Part shown: in pieces, positions 12,306 to 45,271 of the stretch | Layout of the letters: every line of letters begins with the position of its first letter | How positions within the stretch are numbered: position 1 is the stretch's first letter | Source of the DNA: Candidatus Levyibacteriota bacterium | GTDB taxonomy: Bacteria; Patescibacteriota; Microgenomatia; Levybacterales; UBA12049 | Assembly (NCBI GenBank): GCA_963716145.1 | Contig: OY970292.1 | Location: 76,104 to 140,103 of the forward strand | Direction of reading: 5' to 3' | Length of the DNA stretch: 64,000 nucleotides | Notes under the pieces: model-generated | The model's input: only the letters and a program-made list of their open reading frames with translations | What the model was told of the DNA's origin: nothing | Database searches by the model: none | Program-made: the position numbers and the translations under genes

Positions 12306-14620
12306 AGAAAATCTTACCTATCATTTTTCTTGCAATAATTATAGTTATTTTTTTCTCACTCTTACTTTTTAAGAATCGGCTTCCAATTCCAGCAGACACG
12401 ATTGTCGGCTTGTATCATCCATTCAGAGATTTATACGCGAAAGATTATCCAAATGGAATTGCTTTTAAAAATTTTCTAGTTACTGATCCAGTACGTCAGC
12501 AATATCCATGGAAAAATTTGACGATGAATATCGAAAAACGCTTTGAGTTGCCTCTTTGGAATCCGTATAATTTTGCCGGGACACCTCTTCTGGCCAATTT
12601 TCAATCAGCAGCTTTTTATCCCTTAAATCTTATTTTTTTGGTACTACCTTTCTCTATTGGTTGGAGTGGCTTAGTCTTGCTGCAGCCGTTATTGGCAGGA
12701 GTTTTTCTATATTTATATCTAAATAATCTAAAGATCAGTCGTTATTCTAGCATTTTTGGAGCGGTTAGTTTTGCGTTTTGTGGATTCTCGGTTGCATGGC
12801 TTGAGTGGGGAACCGTATCACACACCGCAATATGGTTACCTTTAGTACTTTTGTCGATAGATAAAATTATGCATAACTCAACTGACTCAAAAATTTCAAA
12901 TTTCAAATTTCAAATTTCAAATAAACAAATAAGTGTTAAGAAAAATTTAGTTTGGGCACTATTATTTTTATTTTCTCTTACCTCATCTTTTTTTGCAGGG
13001 CATTTGCAGATATTCTTTTATTTAATTATTGCATCATTTTCTTACTTCTTATTTCGTTGGTTTCAAGAGGGGAGAAATAAAAAAACTTTAATTATATTCT
13101 TAATTCTCATCTCTTTATTCTTAATACTGACAATTATTCAATGGTTGCCTACTCTACAATTTATTTTTCAAAGTGCGCGCGGAGTAGACCAAAATTGGCA
13201 AAAGGAAGGATGGTTCATTCCTTGGCAGAATCTTGCTCAATTTGTAGCGCCTGATTTTTTTGGTAACCCCACAACGCTTAACTATTGGGGAGTTTGGAAT
13301 TACGCTGAATTCATAGGATATATAGGGATAGTGCCATTAATAATGGCGGCTTGTGCATTTTTTCAAAGACGAGAAAAATTGATTATTTTTTTTGGCTCAA
13401 TCTTTTTTCTATCTCTTTTATTTTCCTTGCCCACTTTTTTTGCAATGATTCCTTTCCAGCTCCAAATCCCATTCATATCAACTGCTCAACCTACCCGACT
13501 TTTATTTTTAACAGACTTTTCGCTTGCAGTTCTGGCAGCCCTGGGAATTGATGCGTTGATGAGTTATAACAAAAGGAGGCAAATAATTTATCCACTATTA
13601 TTGGTTGGTCTTATCCTTGTTGGTTTATGGGTTTTTGTTTTTGCAGGCGCAAATTTATTGCACTCTATATCCTTGGAAAATTTAAATACCGCAAAGCGCA
13701 ATCTTTATTTCCCAACGATTATCTTTGTTGTTACAGCAGTCCTACTTTTTTCCTACGTTTCCTTAAAAAATAAAGCATATAGGTCGCTAATTTTAGTTTT
13801 GCTATTAATATTTACAGTTGGCGATCTTCTTCGGTTTACATATAAATTTACTCCCTTTACTCCTCAAAAATATCTTTATCCTAATACAAAAGCTATCGAT
13901 TTTTTGCAAAAACAAAAAGGACAATTCCGTATCATGACAACGGATGACAGAATTTTGCCCCCAAATTTCTCCATAATGTATCAGTTGCAGACACTTGACG
14001 GCTATGACCCTTTATATCTGTTAAGATACGGAGAATTAGTTACGGCGTCAGAGAGGGGAAGACCGGATATAAAACCTCCATTTGGTTTTAATAGAATAGT
14101 TACTCCACATAATTTTGAATCCAACCTGGTGGATTTGATGAATGTCCGTTTTGTTCTGAGTTTGTCTGAGATAAAATCCCCAAAATTGGAAAAGGTTTTT
14201 GAAGAAGGGCAGACAAAAATTTATAAAAATAATTCCGCTTTTCAAAGAGCTTTTTTGGTAAAAAAGATAATAGCTGTTTCCGGTAAACAAAATGCAATTA
14301 ATACACTATTTAATAGTGAAATTGATTTGAAGCAAACTGCGATAGTTGAAAATTGGAATAATAAAAAAACTGACTTTGCTCAAGGATCAGTAAGTATTGT
14401 AGAATACAAAGAGAATAATATTAGTGTTTTGGTTCAAAGTAGACAAGAAGCATTTTTAGTTCTGGTGGATACTTTCTATCCGACCTGGAGTGCACAAGTT
14501 TGTATGTCCGATGACAGTAGTTGTAAAGAGGCAAAAATTTATCTGACCGACTATAATTTCCGCGGGATAGTAATTCCAAAAGGAGTACACAAGGTAATAT
14601 TTAAGAACTCATTATTATGA
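12302..14620 (+). CDS. YfhO-family polytopic membrane protein (GT-C-type glycosyltransferase); carries an in-frame AAATTTC x4 array
   Basis: 772 aa; C-terminal DTFYPTWSA...GIVIPKGVHKVIFK is the characteristic YfhO end; ATGA overlap with flanking genes. Confidence 0.6.
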   Translation: MKKILPIIFLAIIIVIFFSLLLFKNRLPIPADTIVGLYHPFRDLYAKDYPNGIAFKNFLVTDPVRQQYPWKNLTMNIEKRFELPLWNPYNFAGTPLLANFQSAAFYPLNLIFLVLPFSIGWSGLVLLQPLLAGVFLYLYLNNLKISRYSSIFGAVSFAFCGFSVAWLEWGTVSHTAIWLPLVLLSIDKIMHNSTDSKISNFKFQISNKQISVKKNLVWALLFLFSLTSSFFAGHLQIFFYLIIASFSYFLFRWFQEGRNKKTLIIFLILISLFLILTIIQWLPTLQFIFQSARGVDQNWQKEGWFIPWQNLAQFVAPDFFGNPTTLNYWGVWNYAEFIGYIGIVPLIMAACAFFQRREKLIIFFGSIFFLSLLFSLPTFFAMIPFQLQIPFISTAQPTRLLFLTDFSLAVLAALGIDALMSYNKRRQIIYPLLLVGLILVGLWVFVFAGANLLHSISLENLNTAKRNLYFPTIIFVVTAVLLFSYVSLKNKAYRSLILVLLLIFTVGDLLRFTYKFTPFTPQKYLYPNTKAIDFLQKQKGQFRIMTTDDRILPPNFSIMYQLQTLDGYDPLYLLRYGELVTASERGRPDIKPPFGFNRIVTPHNFESNLVDLMNVRFVLSLSEIKSPKLEKVFEEGQTKIYKNNSAFQRAFLVKKIIAVSGKQNAINTLFNSEIDLKQTAIVENWNNKKTDFAQGSVSIVEYKENNISVLVQSRQEAFLVLVDTFYPTWSAQVCMSDDSSCKEAKIYLTDYNFRGIVIPKGVHKVIFKNSLL
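12889..12922. repeat. Perfect tandem heptanucleotide array (AAATTTC)x4, in frame inside the YfhO-family gene (encodes ...KISNFKFQISNK...)
   Basis: aaatttc at 12891-12897, 12898-12904, 12905-12911, 12912-12918, then partial aaat. Confidence 0.9.
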
Positions 14621-15570: not shown

Positions 15571-16292
15571 AATTATCCATAATTATTCCTGTTTTTAATG
15601 AGGAAAACACAATTGTTCCTGTTCTTGAAAAAGTGGAAAAGCTTATAATTCCCGGGGTTAGTAAGGAAATAATCGTAGTGGACGATGGATCGACCGATGG
15701 TTCTGCATCGGTAATTTCAAATTTCAAATCTCAAATTTCAAATAATAAAAATTATAAGTTTATTTATCATAAAAAAAATCAAGGAAAAGGAGCTGCTGTT
15801 ATATCCGGTATTAGAAACGCGACCGGGGATTATATTACTATTCAGGATGCGGATCTTGAATATGACCCATCCTACTTCACATCACTTATTGTTCCAATCA
15901 AAAAAGGCCAGGGATTAGTGGTTTACGGTACCCGGCTTAAGAGACTGCCTCATCTTTTTAACGAAGAAAGCCACGGCCTTTTCCTTTTGCATTATTTAGG
16001 GAATAGGTCTTTAAGTTTTATAACCAGTGTTTTGTACGGTCAATGGATAACCGATATGGAAACTTGTTACAAAATCTTTCCACGAGAGGCTGTTAAAGGT
16101 ATGAAGTTAAATGCAAAAGGTTTTGAGTTTGAACCTGAAATTACGGCAAAGCTGCTTAAGAAAAAATTCAAGATTGTCGAACTGCCGATATCTACTGTCC
16201 CTCGGGGTTATAACGAAGGTAAAAAACTACACACAGTTAGAGACGGAGCAAAAGCGCTTTGGTCACTGGTTAAATATCGGTTTGTTGATTAA
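15567..16292 (+). CDS. GT2 polyprenol-phosphate glycosyltransferase (DPM synthase-like); carries an in-frame AAATTTC array
   Basis: LSIIIPVFNEE...VVDDGSTDGS...IQDADLEYDP motifs. Confidence 0.7.
   Translation: MKLSIIIPVFNEENTIVPVLEKVEKLIIPGVSKEIIVVDDGSTDGSASVISNFKSQISNNKNYKFIYHKKNQGKGAAVISGIRNATGDYITIQDADLEYDPSYFTSLIVPIKKGQGLVVYGTRLKRLPHLFNEESHGLFLLHYLGNRSLSFITSVLYGQWITDMETCYKIFPREAVKGMKLNAKGFEFEPEITAKLLKKKFKIVELPISTVPRGYNEGKKLHTVRDGAKALWSLVKYRFVD
15713..15744. repeat. Tandem heptanucleotide array (AATTTCA)x4, one variant unit aatctca, in frame in the DPM-synthase-like GT2
   Basis: units at 15713-15719, 15720-15726, 15727-15733 (variant), 15734-15740; encodes ISNFKSQISNN. Confidence 0.9.
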
Positions 16293-16301
16293 AATAAAAG
16301 A

Positions 16302-17798
16302 ATGAGCATGCATATTTTTGAGAAAATTAAGTTAAATCTTCCGCTTCTTCTTTCTTTGTTTTTTATTTTTATAATTTCCTTATGGTTAAGGTTAGCTTTT
16401 CTGGATACAAATTTATTTTTTGGTCCAGAGCAGGGTAGGGATTTTTTAGTAATTAAAGAACTTGTTTTACAGCATAGATTGACACTAATTGGACCAAAAA
16501 CGGATATAGCCGGCATCTTTCACGGTCCGGTATTTTACTACTTTACAGCTATACCATTTGCAATGAGTCAAGGCGACCCTCTTTTTTCGGCAAAGTTTTT
16601 AATTGTAGTTAATTGTATAACAGTATTTTTTATCTATCTTTTGGGTGCACGTCTTCACAACCGTTCCACCGGTCTTGTAGCAGCAATTTTATTTGCTTTC
16701 TCTTTCAACGCAATTGTTTACGCGCGTTGGCTTTCAAATCCTCCATTATCTATTCCGTTGGTCACAATGGCAATGTTTTTCTTAATAGATTTTCTTAAAG
16801 GAAATAAAAAAAGCTTATTGGGCTATTCAATTTGCTTGGGCTTGCTTGGTCAAGTGGAATTCTTAAATATTTTATTTTTTGTAGCTATTACATTATGTGT
16901 TATTTTTGTATTTTTTAAACGTTTTAGAAAAACATCAGCTGTTTTTTTACTCATCAATTTTCTTATTGTTTCACTTTTGTGCGTTGGTTCATATATCTTA
17001 TTTGATATAAGGCATCAGTTCCTTATTACGAATAATATATTAAATCTTCTCAGGGGACAAACAGGGTTTCATATTTCTTTATTGTCTGCATTGCAAAAAA
17101 GTAGTTTAGAGTTTTTTAATTCATTTACGGTAACTGTTTTGCCTTTTAGAGGACCTTGGAGTTTTTTGCTTTTATTTTTTGCTGCGGGACTACTTCTTAT
17201 TCGCGCCAAAAAGCAGAAAGAGTATGTTCTAGTAATATTATGGTTATTTATTCCGGTGTTTTTACTTATCATTCTGCGCCATGATGTTCTAGAGCAATTT
17301 TTTGTCGCACTTATCCCTGCTTTTATTCTTGTCACGGCATTGGCGATTGAATCAGTATTGAAAAAAGCTCCACCGCTTGGAATCATTATCGTCATTCTAG
17401 TGATCAGTATGCAGCTAATTGCTTGGAAAAATACAATTCCGCAAAACAAAAATATTTTTTTTCAGACACCACAACCGGATCTTCGCTACTCCGATGTATT
17501 GAAAACAATAGATCGAATCTACCAAGAATCAGGTCAAAAATCATTTGCTGTTCAGGCATATACCATTCCCTATTGGAATCAACAGGCTTGGGAATATCTA
17601 TTCTGGAGTTATGGTGCGAAAAAATACGCAAGATTACCTATCAGTCAAAAAGACACTAAAAAATTGTTTGTTATCATTCAAGATGATTCAGATTCCAAGT
17701 ATCAACAAGATTGGCTTAAAAACACTGTAAGTAAATGGGGATCAGTGACGCAGACTTTTCGTTACGGCGTCTTGACTACGCGGGAATTGCAATTATAG
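16302..17798 (+). CDS. Polytopic membrane protein, putative GT-C glycosyltransferase (paralog family with 22010.. and 23566..)
   Basis: 498 aa; shared RD...LTLIGP....G.F.GP.FY motif with two downstream paralogs. Confidence 0.4.
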   Translation: MSMHIFEKIKLNLPLLLSLFFIFIISLWLRLAFLDTNLFFGPEQGRDFLVIKELVLQHRLTLIGPKTDIAGIFHGPVFYYFTAIPFAMSQGDPLFSAKFLIVVNCITVFFIYLLGARLHNRSTGLVAAILFAFSFNAIVYARWLSNPPLSIPLVTMAMFFLIDFLKGNKKSLLGYSICLGLLGQVEFLNILFFVAITLCVIFVFFKRFRKTSAVFLLINFLIVSLLCVGSYILFDIRHQFLITNNILNLLRGQTGFHISLLSALQKSSLEFFNSFTVTVLPFRGPWSFLLLFFAAGLLLIRAKKQKEYVLVILWLFIPVFLLIILRHDVLEQFFVALIPAFILVTALAIESVLKKAPPLGIIIVILVISMQLIAWKNTIPQNKNIFFQTPQPDLRYSDVLKTIDRIYQESGQKSFAVQAYTIPYWNQQAWEYLFWSYGAKKYARLPISQKDTKKLFVIIQDDSDSKYQQDWLKNTVSKWGSVTQTFRYGVLTTRELQL

Positions 17799-17816
17799 TG
17801 TTGAAGTTGGATAAAA

Positions 17817-19502
17817 ATGAAAAAGCTTTTTAATACAAAGATTATATTAGCTATTGTAGTTCTAATTGCGGCATTTTTACGCTTTTATCAACTTGGAGTA
17901 AATCCGCCCTCATTAACCTGGGATGAGGTGGCATGGGGATACAATGCCTATTCGATAGGGGTTGACGGACGTGATGAATTCGGAAGATTGCTGCCATATG
18001 ACTATCTTGAATCCTTCGGAGATTTTAAACCTCCAATGTATGCATATTTAAGCGTGATTCCCGTTAAGATTTTTGGTCTTAATGAATTTGCAACCCGCTT
18101 TGCCTCAGCGTTTTTTGGAACCTTAACGGTATTAATTACTTATTTTTTGGTGAAAGCTTTGTTCTCATTAAATCCGAAACAAACTCAAAATTCAAAAAAT
18201 TCATTGGGAATTGGGAATTGGGAATTGGGAATCCCAATAGTAGCAACAATATTCTTGGCAATCTCACCGTGGCACATTATGCTCTCCAGAGCTGCTTTTG
18301 AAGCAAATGTCGCAACCTTCTTTTTAGTTTTCGGAGTTACAAGTTTTCTTTATTGGATAAAGGAAAAAAATACATTTCTCATATTCTCAGTACTGTCGTT
18401 TGCTTTCTCACTTTATACATTTAATTCTGCCCGCGTAGTAGCTCCGCTTTTGGTTAGTATGTTGGTTGCGGGATTTTGGAAAACATTGTGGCAAAGGAAA
18501 AATGCTGTTATCGTAGCAGGGATTATCGGATTTTTGCTTGTTGCACCCCTTGTCCCCTTCTTGCTATCTCCACAGGCAGGATTGAGATATAAAGAGGTAA
18601 ATATTTTTTCTGATCCGCAAATTGTAGAAAAGGCTAATCAGCAAATCACCAATGATAATAACGTCTGGTGGTCAAAGATTATCCATAATCGGCGCGTAGG
18701 ATATGGATTATCTTATTTGCAACATTATTTAGATAACTTTTCCCCTGACTTTCTGTTTATAAAGGGGGACGGAAATCCCAAATTTTCCACGCAAGAAGTC
18801 GGACAAATGTATATTTGGTCATTACCATTTTTTATCTTAGGCGTACTTTTTCTATTTAAAAAGAGAGAAGGATATTGGTGGATAGTTCCTGCTTGGTTAT
18901 TGCTCGGTATTGTTCCCGCGGCAGTAGCGCGTGAGACTCCTCATGCTTTAAGGACTGAGGGGACATTGCCTACATTTCAAATACTTGAGGCTTATGGTTT
19001 TATAGGAACTCTCTTCTTTCTTAAGGAGCATTTCAGAAGGAAGATTCTTACTTTCACCTGCGCAATCTTCGGGATAATATATATGTTGAATTTTGTTTAT
19101 TTTCTTCATGGTTATTATGTTCATTATGCATGGAAATGGTCAGGTGAATGGCAGTATGGTTATAAAGATTCGATCACTTTTGTTAAAGATAATGAACAGC
19201 AATTTGATAAAATTTTCGTAACAGACTCTCTAGGAAGACCGTATGTTTATTACCTATTTTATCTACATATTTCTCCTGAAACTTTCAGAAATAATGTAAA
19301 AGTAGAACGTGATGCATTCGGATTTGTAAAAGTAAAAGAAGTTGGAAAATTTTCTTTTGAGAGTAATATTAGCGGAAGCAAGCTTAAAGGTGAGAAAGTT
19401 TTATATATTAGTGATATGAAAAATATTCCTCAAAAGGCAAAAGTTCTAAAAACGTTTTATCTCAAAAACGGAAGCCCAATATTAATTGCATACAGTATGT
19501 AA
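17817..19502 (+). CDS. PMT/ArnT-like GT-C glycosyltransferase (GT39/GT83-like); carries an in-frame TTGGGAA x4 array
   Basis: 561 aa; N-terminal loop WDEVAWGYNAYS with DE motif, ~12 TM helices, large C-terminal domain. Confidence 0.5.
   Translation: MKKLFNTKIILAIVVLIAAFLRFYQLGVNPPSLTWDEVAWGYNAYSIGVDGRDEFGRLLPYDYLESFGDFKPPMYAYLSVIPVKIFGLNEFATRFASAFFGTLTVLITYFLVKALFSLNPKQTQNSKNSLGIGNWELGIPIVATIFLAISPWHIMLSRAAFEANVATFFLVFGVTSFLYWIKEKNTFLIFSVLSFAFSLYTFNSARVVAPLLVSMLVAGFWKTLWQRKNAVIVAGIIGFLLVAPLVPFLLSPQAGLRYKEVNIFSDPQIVEKANQQITNDNNVWWSKIIHNRRVGYGLSYLQHYLDNFSPDFLFIKGDGNPKFSTQEVGQMYIWSLPFFILGVLFLFKKREGYWWIVPAWLLLGIVPAAVARETPHALRTEGTLPTFQILEAYGFIGTLFFLKEHFRRKILTFTCAIFGIIYMLNFVYFLHGYYVHYAWKWSGEWQYGYKDSITFVKDNEQQFDKIFVTDSLGRPYVYYLFYLHISPETFRNNVKVERDAFGFVKVKEVGKFSFESNISGSKLKGEKVLYISDMKNIPQKAKVLKTFYLKNGSPILIAYSM
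18204..18245. repeat. Perfect tandem heptanucleotide array (TTGGGAA)x4 ending in the palindrome ATTGGGAATCCCAAT, in frame in the PMT-like gene
   Basis: units 18204-18210, 18211-18217, 18218-18224, 18225-18231; encodes LGIGNWELGI. Confidence 0.9.
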
Positions 19503-19503
19503 C

Positions 19504-21141
19504 ATGAAAAAAAAGGTCGGAATATTATTACTTGCTATTTTAGCTTTAGCGTTTATATTAAGATTTTGGGATTTAGGCAAAGTTCCAATATCGCCAGATT
19601 GGGATGAGGCAGCACTTGGTTATAATGCATATTCGATTATTCAAACAGGAAGAGATGAATATGGTAAATTTTTCCCGGTTATTTTTAGATCCTTTGATGA
19701 TTATAAACCTGGGCTATATACATACCTCGTAATACCATCGGTGTATATATTTGGCCTAAATACCTTCGCTGTACGTTTACCTTCGGCAGTATTAGGCGTA
19801 TTTGCTGTTTTGGCAACGTTTTATCTAGTACGTGAATTATTTAAGCGTGATGAATACGCGCTAATTGCAGCTTTGCTATTGGCAATTTCCCCTTGGCATC
19901 TCCAATTTTCCAGGGTTGGTTTTGAGGCCAATATAGGGGACGCATTGAATATCTTTGCAGCGTTATTTTTTATTAAAGGATTAAAAAAGCCTTGGTTTTT
20001 GACACTGTGTACTCTTTGCGCGGCTCTTTCTTTACATGCTTATCAATCTGAAAAAGTTTTCACTCCGCTTTTTATGCTTTTGTTAATCGCGGTATACTTT
20101 AAGGATTTAATTAAAATAGACAGGAAGAAGTTTATCGCCGCGATTCTTGTAGGCATGGTTGTGACATTACCGTTGATAAATGCGATTATTTCGGATAAAA
20201 ATGTTTTACTCAGAGCAAAAGGTACAAGCATTTTTCAAGATCAAGACTGGTTACTCAAAGATCAGATAGCTACCTTGCAGCATTCGGTTACTCAAGGAGA
20301 TAAGCTAGGCTTACTGCTTGATAATAGGAGGGTTTTATATCTAAAAACAGTTATAGCTGGATATTTAGTGCATTTTAATCCGAATTGGTTGTTAATAAAA
20401 AATGATATCGGCCGGCATCACGCTCCTGACATGGGATTAATATATATATGGGAATTCCCTCTTATTTTGATAGGTATTTACTCTCTGCTTTTTCATAAAT
20501 TTGATAAAAAAACAAAACTATTTATTTTCGGATGGTTTTTGCTTGTTCCGGTACCTGCATCTATTACAACTGAACTTCCTCATCCAGTGAGAACTTTAAA
20601 TTTCCTACCAACATGGCAAGTATTTACCATGCTTGGTCTTGTGACCGCGTACGGTCTTTGGAAGAATATAAAAAATAACGTATTCAGAATTATCCTAGCT
20701 GTATCTTTTCTGGGGGCTGTATTTCTTAACTTTTTTTATTATCTTAATCAGTATTTTGTTCAACAAAATTATTATTATGCGAGTGATTGGCAATATGGTT
20801 ATGAGTCAGCAATTAAGACTATACAGGAAGAAAAAAAGAATTATAAAAAAGTGATTGTTTCGGATCATGCACCCATGGATAAATCATATATATTTTTCTT
20901 GTTTTATCTTAAATATCCACCTGCAATTTATCAATTAGTGGGTGCGAAAAGTTCAGGTAATTTTGCTGCCCATCACGAATTTGATAAATACGAATTCCGA
21001 CTGATAAATTGGGATAACGAAAAAAAAAGCCCGGACATACTCTACATTGGAACACCAAAAGATTTTCCTGAGAAAGTAAAAGTTAAAAAAACTATCCCAT
21101 ATCCTGATGGAAAGCCCGCGATTAAAATAGTAGAAGGATAA
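19504..21141 (+). CDS. PMT/ArnT-like GT-C glycosyltransferase (tandem paralog of 17817..19502)
   Basis: WDEAALGYNAYS motif; ATG at 19504 immediately follows upstream stop (ORF track starts at 19486). Confidence 0.5.
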   Translation: MKKKVGILLLAILALAFILRFWDLGKVPISPDWDEAALGYNAYSIIQTGRDEYGKFFPVIFRSFDDYKPGLYTYLVIPSVYIFGLNTFAVRLPSAVLGVFAVLATFYLVRELFKRDEYALIAALLLAISPWHLQFSRVGFEANIGDALNIFAALFFIKGLKKPWFLTLCTLCAALSLHAYQSEKVFTPLFMLLLIAVYFKDLIKIDRKKFIAAILVGMVVTLPLINAIISDKNVLLRAKGTSIFQDQDWLLKDQIATLQHSVTQGDKLGLLLDNRRVLYLKTVIAGYLVHFNPNWLLIKNDIGRHHAPDMGLIYIWEFPLILIGIYSLLFHKFDKKTKLFIFGWFLLVPVPASITTELPHPVRTLNFLPTWQVFTMLGLVTAYGLWKNIKNNVFRIILAVSFLGAVFLNFFYYLNQYFVQQNYYYASDWQYGYESAIKTIQEEKKNYKKVIVSDHAPMDKSYIFFLFYLKYPPAIYQLVGAKSSGNFAAHHEFDKYEFRLINWDNEKKSPDILYIGTPKDFPEKVKVKKTIPYPDGKPAIKIVEG

Positions 21142-21146
21142 TAATT

Positions 21147-22013
21147 ATGAAAAAGCTGACAGTTGCTTTGGCGACATACAATGAGGAAAGTAATTTATCC
21201 GAGTGTCTTGAGTCTGTAAAAGACTTGGCTAATGAAATCGTTATCGTAGATGGTTCATCAACAGACAGGACTATAGAGATTGCCAGGAAGTTTGATTCAA
21301 AAATAGTTATTACAAACAATCCGCCAATTTTTCATATCAATAAGCAAAAAGCATTGGATTTAGCAACTAATGAGTGGATACTCCAGCTCGATGCCGATGA
21401 GCGCGTAAGTCCGAAATTGGCTCAGGAAATAAAAAAAGTTATTGATATGTCCGATGAGGAATTAAAAGATTATCAGCAAAATCTTCCAAGCAAAAAATTA
21501 TTTCTCAGGCACCAGAAGTTACTTGAAGAAAGAGATGGGAGAATTGGGGCATCAGACGGTCCGTATGTCGCATTTTTTATTCCTCGTCTGAATTACTTTC
21601 TGGGAAGATATTTAAGACATGGCGGCGTTTATCCTGATGGAGTGATAAGGCTTGTAAAAAGGGGATTTGCTCATTTTCCAAGTATTGATGTGCACGAGCA
21701 AATGGCGGTAGATGGACGCGTGGGATGGATTAATAATCCTCTTAATCATAAAGATTCTCCGACATTTGGGCGGTATTTGCAGCGCAATAGCCGATATATT
21801 GATTTAATCACAAAAAAGCTGGAGAAAGAGAATGCCAAAAAAGATATAAAAACCTCGGCTAGTTATCTTGTATTCAAACCACTCTCCTGGTTTTTCATTA
21901 CACAAGTGCGGCATAAAGGTGTTCTGGACGGATATCAAGGGGTAATTTTTTCATTCTTTTCAGCATTGCGATTTCCCAGAGCATACTTAAGATATATAAG
22001 AAAGTCAGAATGA
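21147..22013 (+). CDS. GT2 family glycosyltransferase
   Basis: LTVALATYNEESNL...IVIVDGSSTDRT. Confidence 0.65.
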   Translation: MKKLTVALATYNEESNLSECLESVKDLANEIVIVDGSSTDRTIEIARKFDSKIVITNNPPIFHINKQKALDLATNEWILQLDADERVSPKLAQEIKKVIDMSDEELKDYQQNLPSKKLFLRHQKLLEERDGRIGASDGPYVAFFIPRLNYFLGRYLRHGGVYPDGVIRLVKRGFAHFPSIDVHEQMAVDGRVGWINNPLNHKDSPTFGRYLQRNSRYIDLITKKLEKENAKKDIKTSASYLVFKPLSWFFITQVRHKGVLDGYQGVIFSFFSALRFPRAYLRYIRKSE

Positions 22014-25188: not shown

Positions 25189-25254
25189 TTATCCGTATCA
25201 CAATCAATTCCGTATTTAGTTACAATGCTGAGGATATTTTGCTAGAATAAAGCT

Positions 25255-27535: not shown

Positions 27536-27553
27536 ATTGATCCCGCAATTAAT

Positions 27554-28432: not shown

Positions 28433-28433
28433 T

Positions 28434-32938: not shown

Positions 32939-33567
32939 AGATTTTGATGGTTAGCTCCTTTCTCCCGTATCCGCTTTTTTCGGGAGGGCAGGTCAGGCTT
33001 TTTAATCTTATTAAGGAATTGTCAGCGCGTCACGAGATAACATTAATTTGTGAGAAACGTGAGAATCAAACCGCTGAGGATGAAAATGAGCTCGGGAAAA
33101 TCTGTAAAAAAATTATAACAGTTAAAAGGAAGAAGCAATGGTCAATGAGAAATATATTGAAAACTGCATTCTCTTCAAATTCATTTTTGGTTACAGGCCA
33201 CACCAACATAGAAATGCAAAATAAAATAAAAGAAGAACTAGAAAGAGAAAAGTACGATTTAATTCATGTGGAAACTTATTATATAATGCAAAATTTACCC
33301 TCTGCATTATCAATTCCTGTAGTTTTGGCGGAACACAACATAGAGTATCAGGTTTACAAGAAGTATGTTGACCAAGGATCGCTATTTTTAAAACCTTTGC
33401 TTTCTTTGGATGTTGCAAAAATACAGAAAGAGGAGGAAAGTTTTTGGAAAAAAGCTGATAAATTAATTGCAGTTTCAGGGGATGATAAAAACGCGATGGA
33501 GAAAAAGGGGCTTATGCCCGTTATTGTTGCGAATGGGGTGGACACTGAGAAATTTAGTTTTAAACTA

Positions 33568-33597
33568 GAATTAAGAATTAAGAAGCAAGAATTAAGG
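33568..33597. repeat. Tandem heptanucleotide array (GAATTAA)x4, one variant gaagcaa, in frame in the frameshifted GT4
   Basis: units 33568-33574, 33575-33581, 33582-33588 (variant), 33589-33595, then gg; encodes LELRIKKQELR. Confidence 0.9.
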
Positions 33598-33680
33598 CGA
33601 ATTTTGTTTATTGGTGATTTTAAGTGGTTGCAAAATAGAGACGCTGTGAAGTTTATAGTTGAGGAGATATGGCCCAAAAT

Positions 33681-33715
33681 AATTTCAAATTTCAAATTTC
33701 AAATTTCAAATTCTC
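33681..33715. repeat. Tandem heptanucleotide array (AATTTCA)x4 plus variant aattctc, in frame in the same GT4
   Basis: units 33681-33687, 33688-33694, 33695-33701, 33702-33708, 33709-33715 (variant); encodes ISNFKFQISNSQ. Confidence 0.9.
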
Positions 33716-34140
33716 AATTAAAATTGTGGATTGTTGGGAGAGAGATTCCGGACTCTATAAAAAACTTAACAAATGATCAAGATATCATTTTTGATGAAGA
33801 AGGATCAGCTAGGCCAACGGAAGAATTATTCCAGGAGGCTGATATTCTTTTTGGCTCCGATCAGAATAGGCGGAGGGACTAGTTATAAAATACTTGAGAG
33901 CATGAGCAGTGGTACGCCCGTCGTAACTACAGAACTTAGCGCAAGTGTAATTGATGCAAAGGATAGCATAAATATTATGGTAGGCAAAAATGCTCAAGAG
34001 CTATCTGAAAAAACATTAAAGCTTCTTTCTGATAAAAGACTTTATCAAGCAGTGGCAAAAAATGGGCGGAGCTTGATTGAAGAAAAATACACATGGAGAA
34101 AAATCGCCAATGAGCTGGATAAAGTTTATAAAAGTCTGAT

Positions 34141-35079: not shown

Positions 35080-36195
35080 ATGAAAATTGGCATTGATGCA
35101 AGGCTTTGGAGCGAAACTGGAGTTGGGAGATATATCCGCAATTTGGTAAAGGAACTTCAAGTATTGGACAAGAAGAATGAGTATGTTTTGTTTGTCAGAA
35201 AGGCAGATTACGATAAGGTTAAATTTCAAATTTCAAATGATAAATTCCATATCAGAATTGCGGATATCCGTTGGCACACAATTGACGAGCAGCTGAAGCT
35301 TCCTCATATACTAGATAAAGAAAATGTGGACTTGGTTCATTTTCCTTATTTTTCTGTTCCTGTGGGTTACAAAAAGCCTTTCGTTATGACAATTCATGAT
35401 TTGATTCTTAATCATTTCCCGACAGGTAAAGCCTCCAAGCTCCCTCTGTATTTATATCAATTAAAGCGTCTTGGCTATGATTATGTAGTAAAAAAAGCAG
35501 TGAAGAGAGCGCAAAAAATTATCGTTCCCCTCAATGCTGTCAGAGATGATTTGGTAGCAACACTTGGAGTCAAAGAAGAAAAAGTTGCTGTAACGTATGA
35601 AGGCTTTGATGAAAAAATAATCAGTAAAGATAAGTCATCGATTGATGATACTAAATATTTTTTGTATGTTGGGAACGCATATCCACACAAGAATATCGAA
35701 AGACTAATAAAAGCCTTTTCCCTTTTTAGAAAAGAACAAAATGCAGAAGTACATTTGCTGTTGGTTGGCAAGGACGACTATTTTTATAAAAAACTTTCAG
35801 AAAAAATAAGGAAAGAAAATTATTCTGGAATTTTGATAAGGAACAATGTAAAAGATTATGAGCTTGCAAATTATTATAATAACGCTATAGCGCTCATTTC
35901 CCCCTCTCTTATGGAAGGATTTGGACTTCCGGTGCTTGAAGCAATGGCATCATCATGTGCCGTACTTGCGTCAGATATTCCCTCACTCAGAGAAGTGTGC
36001 GAAGGTGCGGCGTTATACTTTAATCCGCATTCTATTACAGAGATAAAAGATAAAATGAATCTTATTTTTAATACTGACAAAGAAACTCTAGAAAAATTAA
36101 TAAATAAAGGATTAGATCGTTCTCAGCAATTTTCCTGGAAAAAAATGGCAGAACAAACACTGAAAGTTTATGAAAGTTGCTTTAGTTTACGATAG
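35080..36195 (+). CDS. GT4 family glycosyltransferase; carries short AAATTTC x2 array
   Basis: MKIGIDARLW N-term and SPSLMEGFGLPVLEAMASSCAVLASDIPSLREV C-term. Confidence 0.7.
   Translation: MKIGIDARLWSETGVGRYIRNLVKELQVLDKKNEYVLFVRKADYDKVKFQISNDKFHIRIADIRWHTIDEQLKLPHILDKENVDLVHFPYFSVPVGYKKPFVMTIHDLILNHFPTGKASKLPLYLYQLKRLGYDYVVKKAVKRAQKIIVPLNAVRDDLVATLGVKEEKVAVTYEGFDEKIISKDKSSIDDTKYFLYVGNAYPHKNIERLIKAFSLFRKEQNAEVHLLLVGKDDYFYKKLSEKIRKENYSGILIRNNVKDYELANYYNNAIALISPSLMEGFGLPVLEAMASSCAVLASDIPSLREVCEGAALYFNPHSITEIKDKMNLIFNTDKETLEKLINKGLDRSQQFSWKKMAEQTLKVYESCFSLR
35221..35238. repeat. Short tandem array (AAATTTC)x2 plus partial, in frame in GT4 35080..36195
   Basis: units 35221-35227, 35228-35234, then aaatgat; encodes KFQISND. 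Confidence 0.8.
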
Positions 36196-37258
36196 GATCA
36201 ATAAATGGGGCGGTGCTGAGAGGCTTCTCCTTGCGCTTCATGAATTATTCCCTGAAGCGTCTCTTTATACATCCGTTTATGATAAGGAAAAAGCTCTTTG
36301 GGCAGAAGTTTTTGATATTAGAACTTCTTTTCTGCAAAACATTCCATTTGCCTCAACAAATCATGAACTTCTTGCAGCGTTTATGCCTTTGGCATTTGAA
36401 AGTTTTACTTTTGACGAGTATGATTTGGTGATCTCACTAACTAGTGAGGCAGCAAAAGGAATTATCACAAAACCCGGTACAATACATATTTGTTATTGCC
36501 TAACCCCTACCCGGTATTTGTGGAGCGGTTATGACGAATACTTCAAGAGTGATAGTCTCAAAATTATGTCAAAACCTATTGTTTCAGGTCTTCGCAGGTG
36601 GGATATAGCAGCGAGCAGACGGCCAGATGCCTTTATCGCGATATCCAAGGAAGTTCAAAAAAGAATTAAAAAATATTATGGAAGAGAATCTGATTTGGTT
36701 TATCCGCCAGTGACATTGAGCGCAAGAGCGCAAGAGCGCAAGAGCGCAACGAAGGAAGGAGAATATTTTCTAGTTGTGTCACGTTTGTCAAAGTTTACGG
36801 GATATAAGAGAGTTGACTTGGTTATTGAAGCTGTCAATGAACTTAAAATTCCTTTGAAAATTATTGGGGATGGAAGCTTGAGAAAAGAACTGGAACAAAT
36901 GGCAGGACCGACAATCGAATTTATAGGAAATGTTAATGATGATGAATTGGGTGGATATTACAAAAACTGCAAAGCATTGATCTTTCCGGGGAAAGAGGAC
37001 TTGGGGTTGGTAATGATTGAGGCACAAATGTTTGGAAAACCGGTTATTGCTTACAAGGAAGGTGGAGCTGTAGAATTGGTGATTGAGGCCAAGACGGGAA
37101 TATTTTTCCAGCAGCAAACAAAAAAATCATTAATTGAAGCGCTACAGAAATTTGAAAAAACCAAATTTGATTCAAAAGCCTGCAGAAAAAATGCAGAAAA
37201 ATTTAGCATGGATAAATTTAAGCAAAATTTCTTGTCGGTTGTGAATAAATTGATTTGA
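36170..37258 (+). CDS. GT4 family glycosyltransferase; carries GAGCGCAA x4 array
   Basis: MKVALVYDRINKWGGAERLL N-term, FPGKEDLGLVMIEAQMFGKPVIAYKEGG C-term; 26-nt overlap with upstream gene. Confidence 0.65.
   Translation: MKVALVYDRINKWGGAERLLLALHELFPEASLYTSVYDKEKALWAEVFDIRTSFLQNIPFASTNHELLAAFMPLAFESFTFDEYDLVISLTSEAAKGIITKPGTIHICYCLTPTRYLWSGYDEYFKSDSLKIMSKPIVSGLRRWDIAASRRPDAFIAISKEVQKRIKKYYGRESDLVYPPVTLSARAQERKSATKEGEYFLVVSRLSKFTGYKRVDLVIEAVNELKIPLKIIGDGSLRKELEQMAGPTIEFIGNVNDDELGGYYKNCKALIFPGKEDLGLVMIEAQMFGKPVIAYKEGGAVELVIEAKTGIFFQQQTKKSLIEALQKFEKTKFDSKACRKNAEKFSMDKFKQNFLSVVNKLI
36718..36749. repeat. Perfect tandem octanucleotide array (GAGCGCAA)x4, in frame in GT4 36170..37258
   Basis: units 36718-36725, 36726-36733, 36734-36741, 36742-36749; encodes SARAQERKSAT. 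Confidence 0.9.
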
Positions 37259-43864: not shown

Positions 43865-44302
43865 ATGTTAATTGGACAGTATGAAAGTAAAATTGGTGAA
43901 AAACATCAAGCAGCATTACCTAAAAAATTCAGGGAGATTCTTGGTGACCGATTAATTATTACAAAGGGGTTTGAAAATTGCTTGATTGTAGTGTCAGTCG
44001 ACAATTGGAAAACTCTTCTGGAAGGAACGGAGGGAAAACCGTTTACGAGTAAAGCAACGCGTGAATTGCAAAGGTTTTTATTGGGAAACGCGACAGACAT
44101 AACGCTTGACAGTAAAGGAAGATTTGTAATACCTGAATATTTAAGAGAATTCGCAAGCATAAAAACTGAAGTAGTCATAGCCGGAATTGAGAGATTTATC
44201 GAGATCTGGGACAAAGGTAAATGGGAAGATCAGCAAAAGGAATTGAGTAAAAACATTGAATCAATCGCAGAAAGGCTGTCCGAAGGAAAGAGTGAATCAT
44301 GA
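43865..44302 (+). CDS. mraZ: Transcriptional regulator MraZ
   Basis: MLIGQYESKIGEKHQAALPKKFREIL and second repeat RFVIPEYLREFA typical of duplicated MraZ/SpoVT-AbrB-like halves; first gene of dcw cluster. Confidence 0.8.
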   Translation: MLIGQYESKIGEKHQAALPKKFREILGDRLIITKGFENCLIVVSVDNWKTLLEGTEGKPFTSKATRELQRFLLGNATDITLDSKGRFVIPEYLREFASIKTEVVIAGIERFIEIWDKGKWEDQQKELSKNIESIAERLSEGKSES

Positions 44303-44323
44303 ATAAAGAATTAAGAATTAAGG
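44301..44323. repeat. GAATTAA-type array (gaataaa gaattaa gaattaa gg) starting inside and just after the mraZ stop codon, intergenic mraZ-rsmH
   Basis: mraZ TGA at 44300-44302; units 44301-44307, 44308-44314, 44315-44321. Confidence 0.85.
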
Positions 44324-44371
44324 GAAATTAAACCATAATTCATACTTCATAATTCTTGATTCTAAAAAAAG

Positions 44372-45271
44372 ATGGGTAATACATATCACACGACAGTACT
44401 TTTAGAAGAAACAGTAGATGGTTTAAATGTTAAAGAAGGGAAGAAATATATCGACGCTACATTGGGAGGAGGAGGACACAGTTTTGAGATTTTGAAGCGC
44501 GGAGGGAGAGTATTGGGTTTGGATGCAGATCAAGATGCGCTTGATTTTGTTCAGGAAGAATTAAGAATTAAGAATCAAGAATTAAGGTTTGAAAAGAAAA
44601 ATTTAACCTTAGCAAAGGGAAATTTTAAGGACATTGATAAAATTGCAACAGAATTTGGATTTGAAAAAGTTTTTGGCATTGTTTTTGATCTTGGGGTCTC
44701 GAGCCACCAGCTAGACACTGTGGAAAGAGGGTTTAGTTTTCAAAGCACTGGCCCTTTAGACATGCGGATGGATCGAGATCTTAGCGTCAAAGCTGCGGAT
44801 TTGGTAAATATCCTAACGAAAGGAGAGCTTTATGAGTTATTTAATAAACTGGGTGAGGAGCATTTTGCTCACGCCATATCAGAAAGTATTGTTAGCAGTC
44901 GCCGAGTAAGTCCAATTAAGACGACATCAGAATTGGTAGAAATTGTAAGAAGCGCCGTGCCAAGACTGAAACATAATATTAATCCGGCGACTAAAGTATT
45001 TCAAGCGCTGAGAATTGCGATAAACGATGAGTTTAATAACTTGAAGGAAGCTCTACCAAAAGCACTGGAGTTATTGGATGCACATGGAAGATTAGCCGTA
45101 ATCGCGTTTCATTCACTTGAGGATAGAATAATAAAAAATCAATTTAAAGAATTTGCTGAAATGGGACAGGGAGTCATTATTACAAAAAAACCGATTAGTC
45201 CAAGTTTTGCTGAAATTGAAGGAAACAGGCGCTCAAGAAGCGCAAAATTAAGAATTATTGAAAAGATATAA
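44372..45271 (+). CDS. rsmH: 16S rRNA (cytosine1402-N4)-methyltransferase RsmH; contains in-frame GAATTAA x4 insertion
   Basis: YHTTVLLEETVDGL...DATLGGGGHS...FDLGVSSHQLD...RGFSF signature; follows mraZ. Confidence 0.85.
   Translation: MGNTYHTTVLLEETVDGLNVKEGKKYIDATLGGGGHSFEILKRGGRVLGLDADQDALDFVQEELRIKNQELRFEKKNLTLAKGNFKDIDKIATEFGFEKVFGIVFDLGVSSHQLDTVERGFSFQSTGPLDMRMDRDLSVKAADLVNILTKGELYELFNKLGEEHFAHAISESIVSSRRVSPIKTTSELVEIVRSAVPRLKHNINPATKVFQALRIAINDEFNNLKEALPKALELLDAHGRLAVIAFHSLEDRIIKNQFKEFAEMGQGVIITKKPISPSFAEIEGNRRSRSAKLRIIEKI
44558..44587. repeat. Tandem heptanucleotide array (GAATTAA)x4, one variant gaatcaa, in frame inside rsmH (encodes EELRIKNQELR, apparent ~10-aa loop insertion)
   Basis: units 44558-44564, 44565-44571, 44572-44578 (variant), 44579-44585, then gg. 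Confidence 0.9.

What the first reader, a model, noticed from the sequence alone, without database searches (positions are those of the whole stretch)
18204..18245. TTGGGAA x4 array in a PMT-like GT-C gene terminates in a perfect 15-bp palindrome
The array (18204-18231) runs into ATTGGGAATCCCAAT (18224-18238), a perfect inverted repeat. The array may have expanded from one arm of a pre-existing palindrome or hairpin, which would point to a replication-slippage or hairpin-primed origin. It is in frame and encodes NWELGIGNWELGI.
Basis: seen in the sequence. Interest (0 to 1): 0.55.

Follow-up and report, generated by a model that had tools for sequence, protein, structure and literature searches.

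The report
In-frame heptamer microsatellite in glycosyltransferase gene
The TTGGGAA x4 run is one copy of a family of four-unit, seven-base tandem repeats that are scattered in frame through the genes of Levybacteria (tiny uncultured bacteria). It is an old, tolerated insertion in a floppy protein loop, not a fresh expansion from a hairpin.

Summary
The array is real. It is a perfect (TTGGGAA)x4 at 18204-18231, with periodicity over 18203-18232. It sits in frame in a GT-C (PMT/PMT_2) glycosyltransferase gene of a Levybacteria (CPR) genome.

The "perfect 15-bp palindrome" is really two 7-nt arms around an unpaired central A. The encoded peptide is LGIGNWELGI.

The array is not a local novelty:
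- The window holds at least 10 heptamer arrays.
- In 1.49 Mb of Levybacteria DNA, 7 is almost the only tandem-repeat period: 118 arrays, 72 of them with 4.x copies, and 87% inside ORFs with none breaking the frame.
- At this codon position, 12 or more other species and the tandem paralogue carry a four-unit (TTGGAAA)4 array. One species has a clean 21-bp (3-unit) gap instead.

The window allele is a G-variant that spread to all four units. This created the only canonical G-quadruplex motif in the 64 kb. It also lengthened the complementarity with the conserved Ile-Pro-Ile codons downstream.

Arrays in general do not end in inverted repeats, and the hairpin is not unusually stable. So the hairpin-origin idea is not supported, while slippage filtered by reading frame is.

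The closest known things are the heptameric SSR classes: GGGAATC repeats of Xanthomonas/Nostoc, cyanobacterial STRR and Beggiatoa TAACTGA. I rate this a new member of a known kind, of moderate interest.

The parts
17817..19502 (+). GT-C glycosyltransferase gene (PMT/PMT_2, GT39-like), 561 aa, host of the array
   Evidence: ORF. Pfam hits above gathering scores. 4296 homologues, the named ones annotated as glycosyltransferase family 39 of Levybacteria/Patescibacteria. AF2 model has pTM 0.86, with best PDB matches AglB, STT3, PglB, ArnT and Pmt4. W35-D36-E37 is invariant in alignment A1.
18203..18232 (+). Perfect heptanucleotide array, (TTGGGAA)x4 at 18204-18231; encodes L130-I139 (LGIGNWELGI)
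   Evidence: It lies in the only internal low-confidence stretch of the model (residues 119-134, pLDDT <50) and runs into the N-terminus of helix 135-148.
18224..18238 (.). Inverted repeat ATTGGGA-A-TCCCAAT (7+1+7): last array unit plus the Ile-Pro-Ile codons ATC CCA ATA
   Evidence: Sequence and reverse complement. Fold energy -7.6 kcal/mol, z = -1.48. Orthologue comparison.
18206..18229 (+). GGGAATTGGGAATTGGGAATTGGG, the only canonical G-quadruplex motif (G3 N1-7 x4) on either strand of the 64-kb window
   Evidence: Regex scan. ViennaRNA with G-quadruplex terms still prefers the hairpins (-10.2 kcal/mol).
18170..18202 (+). Decayed remnants of two further heptamer arrays in the same loop: one AAATCCG unit, then about 3 CAAAATT-like units, encoding NPKQTQNSKNS
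   Evidence: By comparison with L050 and L208, which carry (AAATCCG)4, a degenerate CAAAATT array and (TTRGAAA)4 in the same order, and with P0094 at protein level.
19486..21141 (+). Tandem paralogue (PMT_2); no array at the equivalent loop in this genome
   Evidence: In other genomes this paralogue family carries (TTGGAAA)~4 at the same loop (L052, L066, L016, L055).
12891..12922 (+). AAATTTC x4.6, perfect, in frame in the YfhO-family gene 12302-14620
   Evidence: Absent at the orthologous site of L001. The Logan contig of the same strain ends inside it.
15713..15743 (+). AATTTCA x4.4 (91% matches), in frame in the GT2 gene 15567-16292
   Evidence: The same loop carries heptamer arrays with related units in L015, L031, L011, L024, L048 and L002.
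33567..33596 (+). AGAATTA x4.3, in frame in the GT4 gene; the unit that would give an in-frame TAA reads CAA instead
33681..33717 (+). AATTTCA x5.1, in frame in the same GT4 gene
35221..35238 (+). AAATTTC x2.6 in the GT4 gene 35080-36195
36718..36749 (+). GAGCGCAA x4.0, a perfect octamer array in frame in the GT4/GT1 gene 36170-37258; the only long non-heptamer array
44301..44355 (+). Two short heptamer arrays (GAATTAA x3.1, CATAATT x3.1) filling the mraZ-rsmH spacer
44556..44586 (+). AAGAATT x4.4, in frame in rsmH; the in-frame TAA position reads CAA
50016..50044 (+). GAATCAA/AAGAATT x4.1 at the 3' end of the Mur ligase gene; its last unit supplies the TAA stop codon

Best explanation
The array is one locus of a lineage-wide family of heptanucleotide microsatellites in Levybacteria. 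It is an old insertion into a permissive, disordered loop between two transmembrane helices of a GT-C glycosyltransferase.

How it works (inferred):
- Seven-base units misalign during replication or repair (slipped-strand mispairing, or template switching within the array).
- Because 7 is not a multiple of 3, only changes of three units (21 bp = 7 codons) survive in a coding sequence. The locus is therefore held at four units, or one.
- Repeated misalignment or conversion inside the array spreads single-base variants to all units.
- In this genome an A->G variant (TTGGAAA -> TTGGGAA), already present in one unit of the sister species, took over all four units.
- The palindrome and the G-quadruplex motif are by-products of that unit change next to the conserved Ile-Pro-Ile codons.

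The array most likely has no dedicated function beyond adding about 7-10 tolerated residues to the loop.

Shown: the anatomy, family membership, orthologous four-unit arrays, the 21-bp indel, and the concerted unit changes.
Inferred: slippage as the molecular process, and neutrality.
For: 1. Period-7 specificity. In 81 sequences (1.49 Mb), TRF finds 118 arrays of >=3 copies with period 7, against 1 (period 6), 9 (period 8) and 14 (period 9). For perfect matched runs of >=13 nt, period 7 has 59 and periods 4-12 other than 7 have 2 together.
2. 103 of 118 arrays lie inside open frames of >=150 codons without interrupting them. Copy classes are 3.x 21, 4.x 72, 5.x 20, 6.x 0, 7.x 4, 8.x 1.
3. In AAGAATT arrays inside genes, the unit that would give an in-frame TAA is mutated to CAA. 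At a gene end, the same TAA serves as the stop codon.
4. Same site, same length. The array has four units in the window, L001, L084, L209/L210, L207, L208, L050 and L054, and in the paralogue copies L052, L066, L016 and L055.
5. L212 differs from L207 by exactly 21 bp, leaving one unit, while the genes are 80.6% identical.
6. Concerted variants occur within arrays.
7. The loop is hypervariable (alignment A1; loop lengths 18-73 aa) and has pLDDT <50.
8. No Rfam family matches anywhere in the window.
9. Over-representation of heptameric SSRs in prokaryotes and a four-unit preference are already described (PMC4692102; PMC4679880, citing Mrazek 2007).
Against: - L084, L209 and L054 share an identical 30-bp (TTGGAAA)4TT, although their four-fold-degenerate sites are saturated (identity 0.23-0.34). 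Pure neutrality plus within-genome homogenisation does not explain why the same unit is kept across deep lineages.
- The four-unit preference also appears in the roughly 12 intergenic arrays and in mostly intergenic Xanthomonas repeats (PMC4692102), so frame selection alone may not set the size.
- Plain slippage does not explain why only period 7 occurs.
- Insert sizes relative to the 22-aa standard loop are +5 to +9 aa, not a clean +7.
- No population data were available to show slippage happening.
Confidence: 0.6

Rival explanations
1. Contingency locus. The heptamer tract makes the glycosyltransferase phase-variable. Gain or loss of one unit shifts the frame and switches the enzyme (and a surface glycan) off; a second slip restores it. 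Passing through out-of-frame states and back would also explain how variants spread while the consensus stays at four units.
For: - The unit length is not a multiple of 3 and the tract is inside an ORF of a surface-glycan enzyme.
- Many arrays in the window lie in glycosyltransferase genes.
- Units are homogenised without a net change in length.
Against: - There are only four units, whereas neuO has 3-53.
- The tract is at codon 130 of 561, not near the 5' end.
- None of the 103 coding arrays is out of frame.
- Copy number is fixed at 4 (or 1) in every species examined. In contrast, 65.6% of neuO genomes are phase-OFF (PMC13001214).
- Arrays also sit in rsmH, in transmembrane helices and at gene ends.
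- Two assemblies of the same strain are identical at this array.
Confidence: 0.15
2. Selected nucleic-acid element. The four-unit heptamer module is a functional DNA or RNA motif. It could be a G-quadruplex or hairpin in this allele, or a binding site for a protein that reads tandem heptamers. It would be kept by selection and perhaps spread by a dedicated insertion or templating process.
For: - An identical (TTGGAAA)4TT persists across lineages whose synonymous sites are saturated.
- The exact 30-bp module occurs in >120 unrelated metagenome contigs of GC 0.23-0.67, including just upstream of prepilin-type N-terminal motifs.
- There is a four-unit preference in both coding and non-coding arrays, as in Xanthomonas and Nostoc (PMC4692102).
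- Families share a unit within the window: AAATTTC at 4 loci and AAGAATT at 4-5 loci.
- The window allele is the only canonical G4 motif in 64 kb.
- About 40% of Xanthomonas GGGAATC repeats occur as convergent inverted pairs (PMC4692102).
Against: - 116 of 118 Levybacteria arrays have no G3 or C3 run, so G4 cannot be the general reason for four units.
- Hairpin stability is ordinary (z = -1.48), and the G4 is not the predicted ground state.
- Inverted repeats are not enriched at array ends.
- The unit has drifted in several lineages without loss of the gene (L050, L208, L001, L207). The array has been deleted (L212) or overwritten by other inserts (L082, L211, P0047).
Confidence: 0.17
3. A pre-existing hairpin or palindrome at this site stalled or primed synthesis, and one arm was amplified into the array.
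For: - The array abuts an inverted copy of its own unit.
- In TTGGAAA alleles followed by CCAAT, the junction is again 7+1+7: ATTGGAA-A-TTCCAAT in L207 and the outer arms of L082.
- The arm differs in step with the unit in the window (GGGA/TCCC versus GGAA/TTCC).
- L082 carries a nested hairpin at the site.
Against: - Arrays of the same unit and length exist without the arm (L054, L016, L055).
- The arm is made of conserved Pro-Ile codons.
- Complementarity is broken in 5 of 8 relatives with the CCAAT flank.
- Inverted repeats are not enriched at the ends of 118 arrays.
- The covariation is a single event, with a chance probability of about 0.16.
- No expansion occurred in this lineage.
Confidence: 0.06

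Closest known systems
G-rich heptameric SSRs of Xanthomonas and Nostoc, (GGGAATC)n / (GGGANTN)n (Rehm et al. 2015, PMC4692102)
   Same: - Tandem heptamers dispersed over the genome.
[quoted passage not shown]
- The window unit GGGAATT fits (GGGANTN), and the last unit is literally GGGAATC.
- Four G3 tracts give a canonical G4 motif.
- Association with an inverted copy: 70-75 convergent pairs per Xanthomonas genome.
- Some repeats overlap stop codons.
   Different: - In Xanthomonas, 89-93% of the repeats are intergenic and they are under-represented in ORFs. Here 87% lie inside ORFs, in frame.
- Here the G-rich unit is the exception (2 of 118). The typical unit is about 20% GC and cannot form G4, yet the four-unit preference persists.
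- Here orthologous arrays are conserved across species. The Xanthomonas repeats are not found at the same genes in two species.
Heptameric long SSRs of prokaryotes in general (Mrazek et al. 2007, as summarised in PMC4679880 and PMC4692102), cyanobacterial STRR heptamers, and TAACTGA repeats of Beggiatoaceae (PMC4679880)
   Same: - Period 7 is the dominant long-SSR class.
- Copy numbers are low (2-6).
- Many loci in one genome share a unit.
- The mechanism is unknown. One proposal is that about 7 nt is the stretch contacted by the polymerase.
   Different: - Those repeats are mainly intergenic, often just upstream of start codons.
- One or a few units dominate a genome. Here there are 57 different units in 103 coding arrays.
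- The arrays here are translated.
- I found no paper describing this in CPR/Patescibacteria in the library searched.
neuO poly-heptanucleotide tract of E. coli K1 (PMC13001214)
   Same: A heptanucleotide tandem repeat inside the ORF of a surface-glycan-modifying enzyme. The protein is full length only when the unit count fits the frame (multiples of 3), and each three units add a 7-residue peptide repeat.
   Different: - neuO has 3-53 units at the 5' end.
- It varies between and within strains, and most genomes are phase-OFF.
- Here there are four units, mid-gene, invariant in number across species, with no OFF allele seen.
Borg amino-acid tandem repeats (PMC9879509)
   Same: Perfect nucleotide tandem repeats inside ORFs that create disordered protein segments and turn over fast.
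   Different: Borg repeat units inside ORFs are multiples of 3, are longer, and have many copies. Here the unit is 7 nt, so frame is kept only by the copy number.

Membership tests
Heptameric dispersed SSR class (LSSR / STRR / GGGAATC-type) | Head-to-tail copies of a 7-nt unit | tested here: met
   TRF reports 18203-18232, period 7, 4.3 copies, 100% matches. An exact scan agrees.
Heptameric dispersed SSR class (LSSR / STRR / GGGAATC-type) | Genome- or lineage-wide excess of period 7 over other periods | tested here: met
   118 arrays with period 7, against 1-14 for periods 4-18. Matched runs of >=13 nt: 59 for period 7, against 2 for all other periods together.
Heptameric dispersed SSR class (LSSR / STRR / GGGAATC-type) | Several loci in one genome share the unit | tested here: inconclusive
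   AAATTTC (4 loci) and AAGAATT (4-5 loci) do share units in the window. ATTGGGA occurs only once in the 64 kb, and the rest of the 1.14-Mb genome was not available.
Heptameric dispersed SSR class (LSSR / STRR / GGGAATC-type) | Preference for about four units | tested here: met
   72 of 118 arrays have 4.x copies. At this locus the count is exactly four in >=12 species.
Heptameric dispersed SSR class (LSSR / STRR / GGGAATC-type) | Mostly intergenic location | tested here: not met
   103 of 118 arrays are inside open frames of >=150 codons. 91% of the DNA is in such frames, so coding DNA is not avoided.
G-quadruplex-forming repeat (Rehm 2015) | Four or more G3 tracts with short loops | tested here: met
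   GGGAATTGGGAATTGGGAATTGGG at 18206-18229, the only such motif in the window.
G-quadruplex-forming repeat (Rehm 2015) | Quadruplex actually forms (CD, melting) | not testable with these tools
   ViennaRNA with G-quadruplex terms predicts hairpins as the minimum (-10.2 kcal/mol). No biophysics was possible.
Phase-variable contingency locus (SSR frameshift switch) | SSR with a unit not divisible by 3 inside an ORF or promoter | tested here: met
Phase-variable contingency locus (SSR frameshift switch) | Copy number varies between or within strains, including out-of-frame alleles | tested here: not met
   The count is four units in all species with DNA in hand, and one unit in L212. No out-of-frame array was found among 103. 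The same strain in a second assembly is identical, and cluster members have the same length. Read-level variation could not be examined.
Phase-variable contingency locus (SSR frameshift switch) | Tract long enough for a high slippage rate, usually near the 5' end | tested here: not met
   Four units, at codons 130-139 of 561.
GT-C glycosyltransferase, GT39 / PMT_2 family (host gene) | Pfam PMT/PMT_2 match above the curated threshold | tested here: met
   PF02366 scores 27.7 (cutoff 22.7) and PF13231 scores 26.3 (cutoff 26.1). The matches stop at residue 117, just before the array.
GT-C glycosyltransferase, GT39 / PMT_2 family (host gene) | Acidic DE motif in the first extracytoplasmic loop, and a GT-C fold | tested here: met
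   W35, D36 and E37 are invariant in A1. Foldseek probability is 1.00 to AglB, STT3, PglB, ArnT and Pmt4.
Hairpin- or quasipalindrome-driven repeat | Inverted repeat consistently attached to arrays and more stable than chance | tested here: not met
   Flank-swap controls give the same distribution. z = -1.48. The junction is perfect in 3 relatives and broken in 5.

The most novel reading that the evidence does not exclude
Four-unit heptamer modules (about 30 bp) may be produced or maintained by a dedicated, so far unknown mechanism, rather than by ordinary slippage. Candidates are a machine with a 7-nt step, a templated insertion process, or a protein or RNA that reads four tandem heptamers.

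This would explain:
- why only period 7 occurs;
- why four units are preferred whatever the G content or coding status;
- why an identical (TTGGAAA)4TT is kept at one codon position across Levybacteria lineages with saturated synonymous sites;
- why the same module turns up in many unrelated bacteria.

Levybacteria would then be a natural system in which such modules are written into, and tolerated inside, protein-coding genes.
Probability: 0.2. Interest if true: 0.75.

Novelty: new member of a known kind. Interest (0 to 1): 0.4.

Why it matters
For this locus alone, little. It is a tolerated 10-codon stretch in a disordered loop, and the palindrome is incidental.

The wider pattern is more useful:
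- A CPR lineage with about 80 heptamer arrays per Mb, almost all translated and in frame.
- Arrays held at four units at orthologous positions across species.
- Arrays that evolve in concert.

This gives a clean natural data set for an old open question: why 7-nt units, and why four copies, dominate long SSRs in prokaryotes. It also shows that the published G-quadruplex explanation for the four-unit preference cannot be general, because 116 of 118 arrays here lack G or C tracts.

Practically, these arrays break k=31 assemblies (seen). They also add lineage-specific 7-residue inserts that can confuse alignment and annotation of CPR proteins.

Tried and rejected
- **Known RNA element.** An Rfam scan of the whole window gave no match.
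- **General link between arrays and inverted repeats.** Two tests with flank-swapped controls found no enrichment.
- **Hairpin or G4 as a strong structure.** The DNA hairpin has z = -1.48. The G4 is not the predicted minimum.
- **Copy-number variants of this array.** The 90% cluster holds only an identical-length protein. The look-up of P0121 failed. The second assembly of the strain (L086) is 99.988% identical and carries the same array.
- **Frameshifted genes at arrays as a sign of phase variation.** None was found. The roughly 15 arrays outside long ORFs fill short spacers or overlap stop or start codons. The one split gene in the window (32935-34144) changes frame about 150 bp downstream of its array.
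- **A strict +21-bp quantum relative to array-free loops.** Array-bearing loops are +5 to +9 aa relative to the 22-aa standard. The quantum is clean only for the L207/L212 pair.
- **Assembly artefact (de Bruijn collapse to about k).** I considered this because lengths cluster near 31 bp and the Logan contig breaks at a 32-bp array. I rejected it as the general cause because the same lengths occur in contigs from k141 MEGAHIT, SPAdes and other assemblies, and because the arrays are in frame in conserved genes.
- **-1 frameshift slippery site.** AAATTTC fits X XXY YYZ, but this does not apply to TTGGGAA or to most other units.
- **Single versus multiple origin of the array.** An NJ tree with the loop masked scatters array-bearing proteins over three clades plus P0022 on its own. 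They nevertheless share distinctive flanks (NSKxSL ... IPIVAA), so the question is left open.
Full report
**1. The observation**

Positions 18204-18231 are four perfect head-to-tail copies of TTGGGAA. The 7-nt periodicity runs from 18203 to 18232 (TRF: period 7, 4.3 copies, 100% matches).

The window has three perfect period-7 arrays of three or more copies. None appeared in 100 order-3 Markov simulations.

The array lies in the ORF 17817-19502. This ORF matches Pfam PMT and PMT_2 above their gathering scores. It has thousands of homologues, and the named ones are annotated as glycosyltransferase family 39 of Levybacteria/Patescibacteria. It folds as a GT-C enzyme: pTM is 0.86, and the best solved matches are AglB, STT3, PglB, ArnT and Pmt4.

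Two details of the finding need correction:
- ATTGGGAATCCCAAT is not a perfect palindrome. Its reverse complement differs at the centre. It is two 7-nt arms around one unpaired A.
- The array encodes L130-I139, LGIGNWELGI, within ...NSLGIGNWELGIPIV.... It does not encode NWELGIGNWELGI.

**2. The array is one of a family**

The window contains at least ten heptamer arrays and one octamer array:
- AAATTTC at 12891, 15713, 33681 and 35221.
- AAGAATT-type at 33567, 44301, 44556 and 50016.
- CATAATT at 44334.
- The octamer GAGCGCAA x4 at 36718.

I fetched 80 orthologous loci from GTDB species representatives, all Levybacteria-like MAGs, 1.42 Mb in total. Across these loci plus the window:
- TRF finds 118 arrays of three or more copies with period 7, against 1 for period 6, 9 for period 8 and 14 for period 9.
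- For perfect matched runs of 13 nt or more, period 7 has 59 cases and all other periods from 4 to 12 together have 2.
- That is about 79 arrays per Mb.
- 72 of the 118 have 4.x copies, none has 6.x and four have 7.x. Lengths peak at 29-35 bp.
- 103 of 118 lie inside open frames of at least 150 codons and none interrupts its frame. Since 91% of the DNA is in such frames, coding DNA is not avoided.
- Arrays whose perfect form would contain an in-frame TAA carry CAA at exactly that unit (33567, 44556). At the end of the Mur ligase gene, the same TAA serves as the stop codon.

**3. The locus in relatives**

In an alignment of 24 homologues, the array falls in a hypervariable loop between ...TYFLVKRIF and ALLSALFLAISPWH. 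Most orthologues have a 22-residue standard version of this segment, but loop lengths range from 18 to 73 residues. In the structure model, residues 119-134 are the only internal stretch with pLDDT below 50. The second half of the array peptide forms the start of helix 135-148.

At the DNA level, the same codon position carries a four-unit array in many species:
- L084, L209/L210 and L054: perfect (TTGGAAA)4TT.
- L207: TTGGAGA TTGGAAA TTCGAAA TTGGAAA.
- L208: TTAGAAA TTAGAAA TTGGAAA TTAGAAA.
- L050: TTAGAAA x2, then TTTGAAA x2.
- L001, the 86%-identical sister species: TTGGAAA TTGGGAA TTGGAAA ATGGAAG.

The tandem paralogue family carries the same array at the same loop in L052, L066, L016 and L055, although the window's own paralogue (19486-21141) does not. 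Eight of the ten arrays of this unit family (nine with unit AAATTGG or AAAATGG, plus the window's own AATTGGG) sit in this loop.

L212 differs from L207 by a clean 21-bp gap that leaves one unit, while the genes are 80.6% identical. In other relatives the array has been overwritten by different small inserts (L082, L211, P0047, P0077). Upstream of the array, the window keeps remnants of two further arrays (AAATCCG and CAAAATT). These are intact in L050 and L208.

**4. What happened in this genome**

Nothing expanded. The window and L001 have arrays of identical length. What differs is the unit.

All four window units carry G at position 5. In L001 only the second unit does. Three independent A->G hits at the same unit position are very unlikely. 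The same kind of spread is seen in L208 (3 of 4 units) and L050 (2+2). The array therefore evolves in concert, by misalignment or conversion among units, without a net change of length.

The unit change has two side effects:
- It creates GGGAATTGGGAATTGGGAATTGGG, the only canonical G-quadruplex motif on either strand of the 64 kb.
- Together with ATC instead of ATT for the following isoleucine, it makes the junction ATTGGGA-A-TCCCAAT.

**5. The palindrome**

The right arm is the conserved Ile-Pro-Ile that opens the next helix.

| Junction state | Where seen |
|---|---|
| 7+1+7, ATTGGAA-A-TTCCAAT (TTGGAAA allele followed by CCAAT) | L207; outer arms of L082 |
| 5+1+5 (followed by CCAG) | L084, L209, L052, L066 |
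| Broken by unit or flank changes | L208, L050, L001, L211, L212 |
| No palindrome | L054, L016, L055 |

The window's matching change (unit A->G with ATT->ATC) is a single event, and ATC is used for 16% of Ile codons. Over all 118 arrays, inverted repeats at array ends are as frequent as in flank-swapped controls. The DNA hairpin is -7.6 kcal/mol with z = -1.48. With G-quadruplex terms switched on, the RNA fold still prefers hairpins at -10.2 kcal/mol.

I conclude that the palindrome is a by-product of the unit sequence next to the Pro-Ile codons, and not the seed of the array. A quasipalindrome template-switch correction could have produced the ATT->ATC change, but that is only an inference.

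**6. Mechanism**

The best-supported reading is slipped-strand misalignment of 7-nt units filtered by the reading frame. Only three-unit steps survive in a gene, so the states are 1, 4 and 7 units. This fits four observations:
- the 21-bp indel;
- the empty 6.x class and the small 7.x class;
- the absence of frame-breaking arrays;
- the treatment of in-frame stop codons.

It leaves three things open:
- Why only period 7 occurs.
- Why four units are also typical of the few intergenic arrays here and of the mostly intergenic Xanthomonas repeats.
- Why L084, L209 and L054 keep an identical 30-bp array when their four-fold-degenerate sites are saturated (identity 0.23-0.34).

These came from contigs of GC 0.23-0.67, and many carry the exact (TTGGAAA)4TT. 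Two lie just upstream of prepilin-type N-terminal motifs. These points keep alive a rival reading in which the four-unit module is itself selected, or is generated by a dedicated process.

**7. Comparison with known classes**

Heptameric SSRs are reported as the most over-represented long SSR class in many prokaryotes. One suggestion is that about 7 nt is the stretch contacted by the polymerase (Mrazek 2007, as summarised in PMC4679880 and PMC4692102).

- Xanthomonas and Nostoc carry about 180 dispersed (GGGAATC)n/(GGGANTN)n repeats. [quoted passage not shown] However, 89-93% of them are intergenic (PMC4692102).
- Beggiatoaceae and cyanobacteria carry TAACTGA and STRR heptamers, again mostly intergenic (PMC4679880).
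- The window unit GGGAATT fits the (GGGANTN) definition.

The Levybacteria arrays differ in four ways. They are overwhelmingly intragenic and translated. They use many AT-rich units (57 in 103 coding arrays, mean unit GC 0.20). They are conserved at orthologous codon positions. They keep the four-unit preference without G tracts.

The neuO tract of E. coli K1 shows the divisible-by-three rule for a heptamer inside a glycan-modifying enzyme. But it is long, lies at the 5' end, is highly variable and is mostly OFF in genomes (PMC13001214). None of that is seen here.

I found no paper on heptamer repeats in CPR bacteria in the library searched. That is a statement about that library only.

**8. 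Verdict**

- The hairpin-origin and recent-expansion ideas are not supported.
- The locus is a new member, in a new lineage and in an unusual coding context, of the known heptameric SSR class.
- Interest is moderate and comes from the lineage-wide pattern, not from this array or its palindrome.

Noticed in passing
window 12891-12922, 15713-15743, 33567-33596, 33681-33717, 35221-35238, 44301-44355, 44556-44586, 50016-50044: Nine further heptamer arrays of about 30 bp, mostly in frame in YfhO, GT2, GT4, rsmH and Mur ligase genes. AAATTTC recurs at four loci and AAGAATT-type units at four.
   Followed up: yes
window 33567-33596 and 44556-44586; 50016-50044: In AAGAATT arrays inside genes, the single imperfect unit is exactly where a perfect array would put TAA in frame (it reads CAA). 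At the end of the Mur ligase gene, the array's TAA is the stop codon.
   Followed up: partly
window 36718-36749: Perfect octamer array GAGCGCAA x4.0, GC-rich, in frame in the GT4/GT1 gene 36170-37258. It is the only long tandem array with a period other than 7 in 1.49 Mb.
   Followed up: no
window 32935-33882 and 33773-34144: A GT4 glycosyltransferase appears split into two overlapping ORFs in different frames. The frame change is near 33860, about 150 bp downstream of the heptamer array, so it is not caused by the array. It could be a pseudogene, a sequencing error or a programmed shift.
   Followed up: partly
L086 (Logan ERR11593400 contig), equivalent to window 12895-29502: A second assembly of the same strain (99.988% identity, 2 mismatches in 16.6 kb) ends inside the 32-bp perfect array at 12891-12922. 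This fits a k=31 graph break at a tandem repeat.
   Followed up: partly
L035 10283-10459, L211 138-1802 loop, P0077, P0087, P0005, L015, L006: The same GT39 loop also collects other small inserts in some species. These are GC-rich palindromic elements translated as ...SLRGEQRRSNL..., ...LRQAQGKLSRG... and ...SPPRSRFATSRGWP... They appear to be a second class of small insertion tolerated at this site.
   Followed up: no
L015 3312-3345, L130 (two arrays in opposite orientation about 25 bp apart): AATTTCC arrays (peptide ISNFQFP) are the reverse complement of GGAAATT arrays (peptide EIGNWKL), so the same duplex unit is translatable in both orientations. L130 carries the two orientations as a convergent pair.
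   Followed up: partly
L105 8283-8307, L160 (reverse strand) 3861-3892: In unrelated, higher-GC metagenome contigs, (TTGGAAA)~4 lies immediately upstream of prepilin-type N-terminal motifs (FTLIELLIV..., FTLIEIMIAV...). The exact 30-bp (TTGGAAA)4TT recurs in many unrelated contigs.
   Followed up: no
Loci L004, L033, L044, L002, L021, L056, L076, L067 (GT39 C-terminal loop); L005, L033, L039, L054, L055, L066, L076 (GT2 '..NGYW' loop); L011, L015, L024, L027, L056 (transmembrane helices): Several other protein positions are shared array sites across species, with different but often one-step-related units. Some arrays encode parts of transmembrane helices, for example LFAICYLLFA and KYLILNTFYLIL.
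   Followed up: partly
window 1-43000: An unusually long, almost entirely plus-strand block of glycosyltransferase and glycan-assembly genes (several PMT_2 paralogues, YfhO, GT2, GT4, Wzy_C-like), followed by the mraZ-rsmH-mur division/cell-wall cluster. No Rfam match anywhere in the 64 kb.
   Followed up: no
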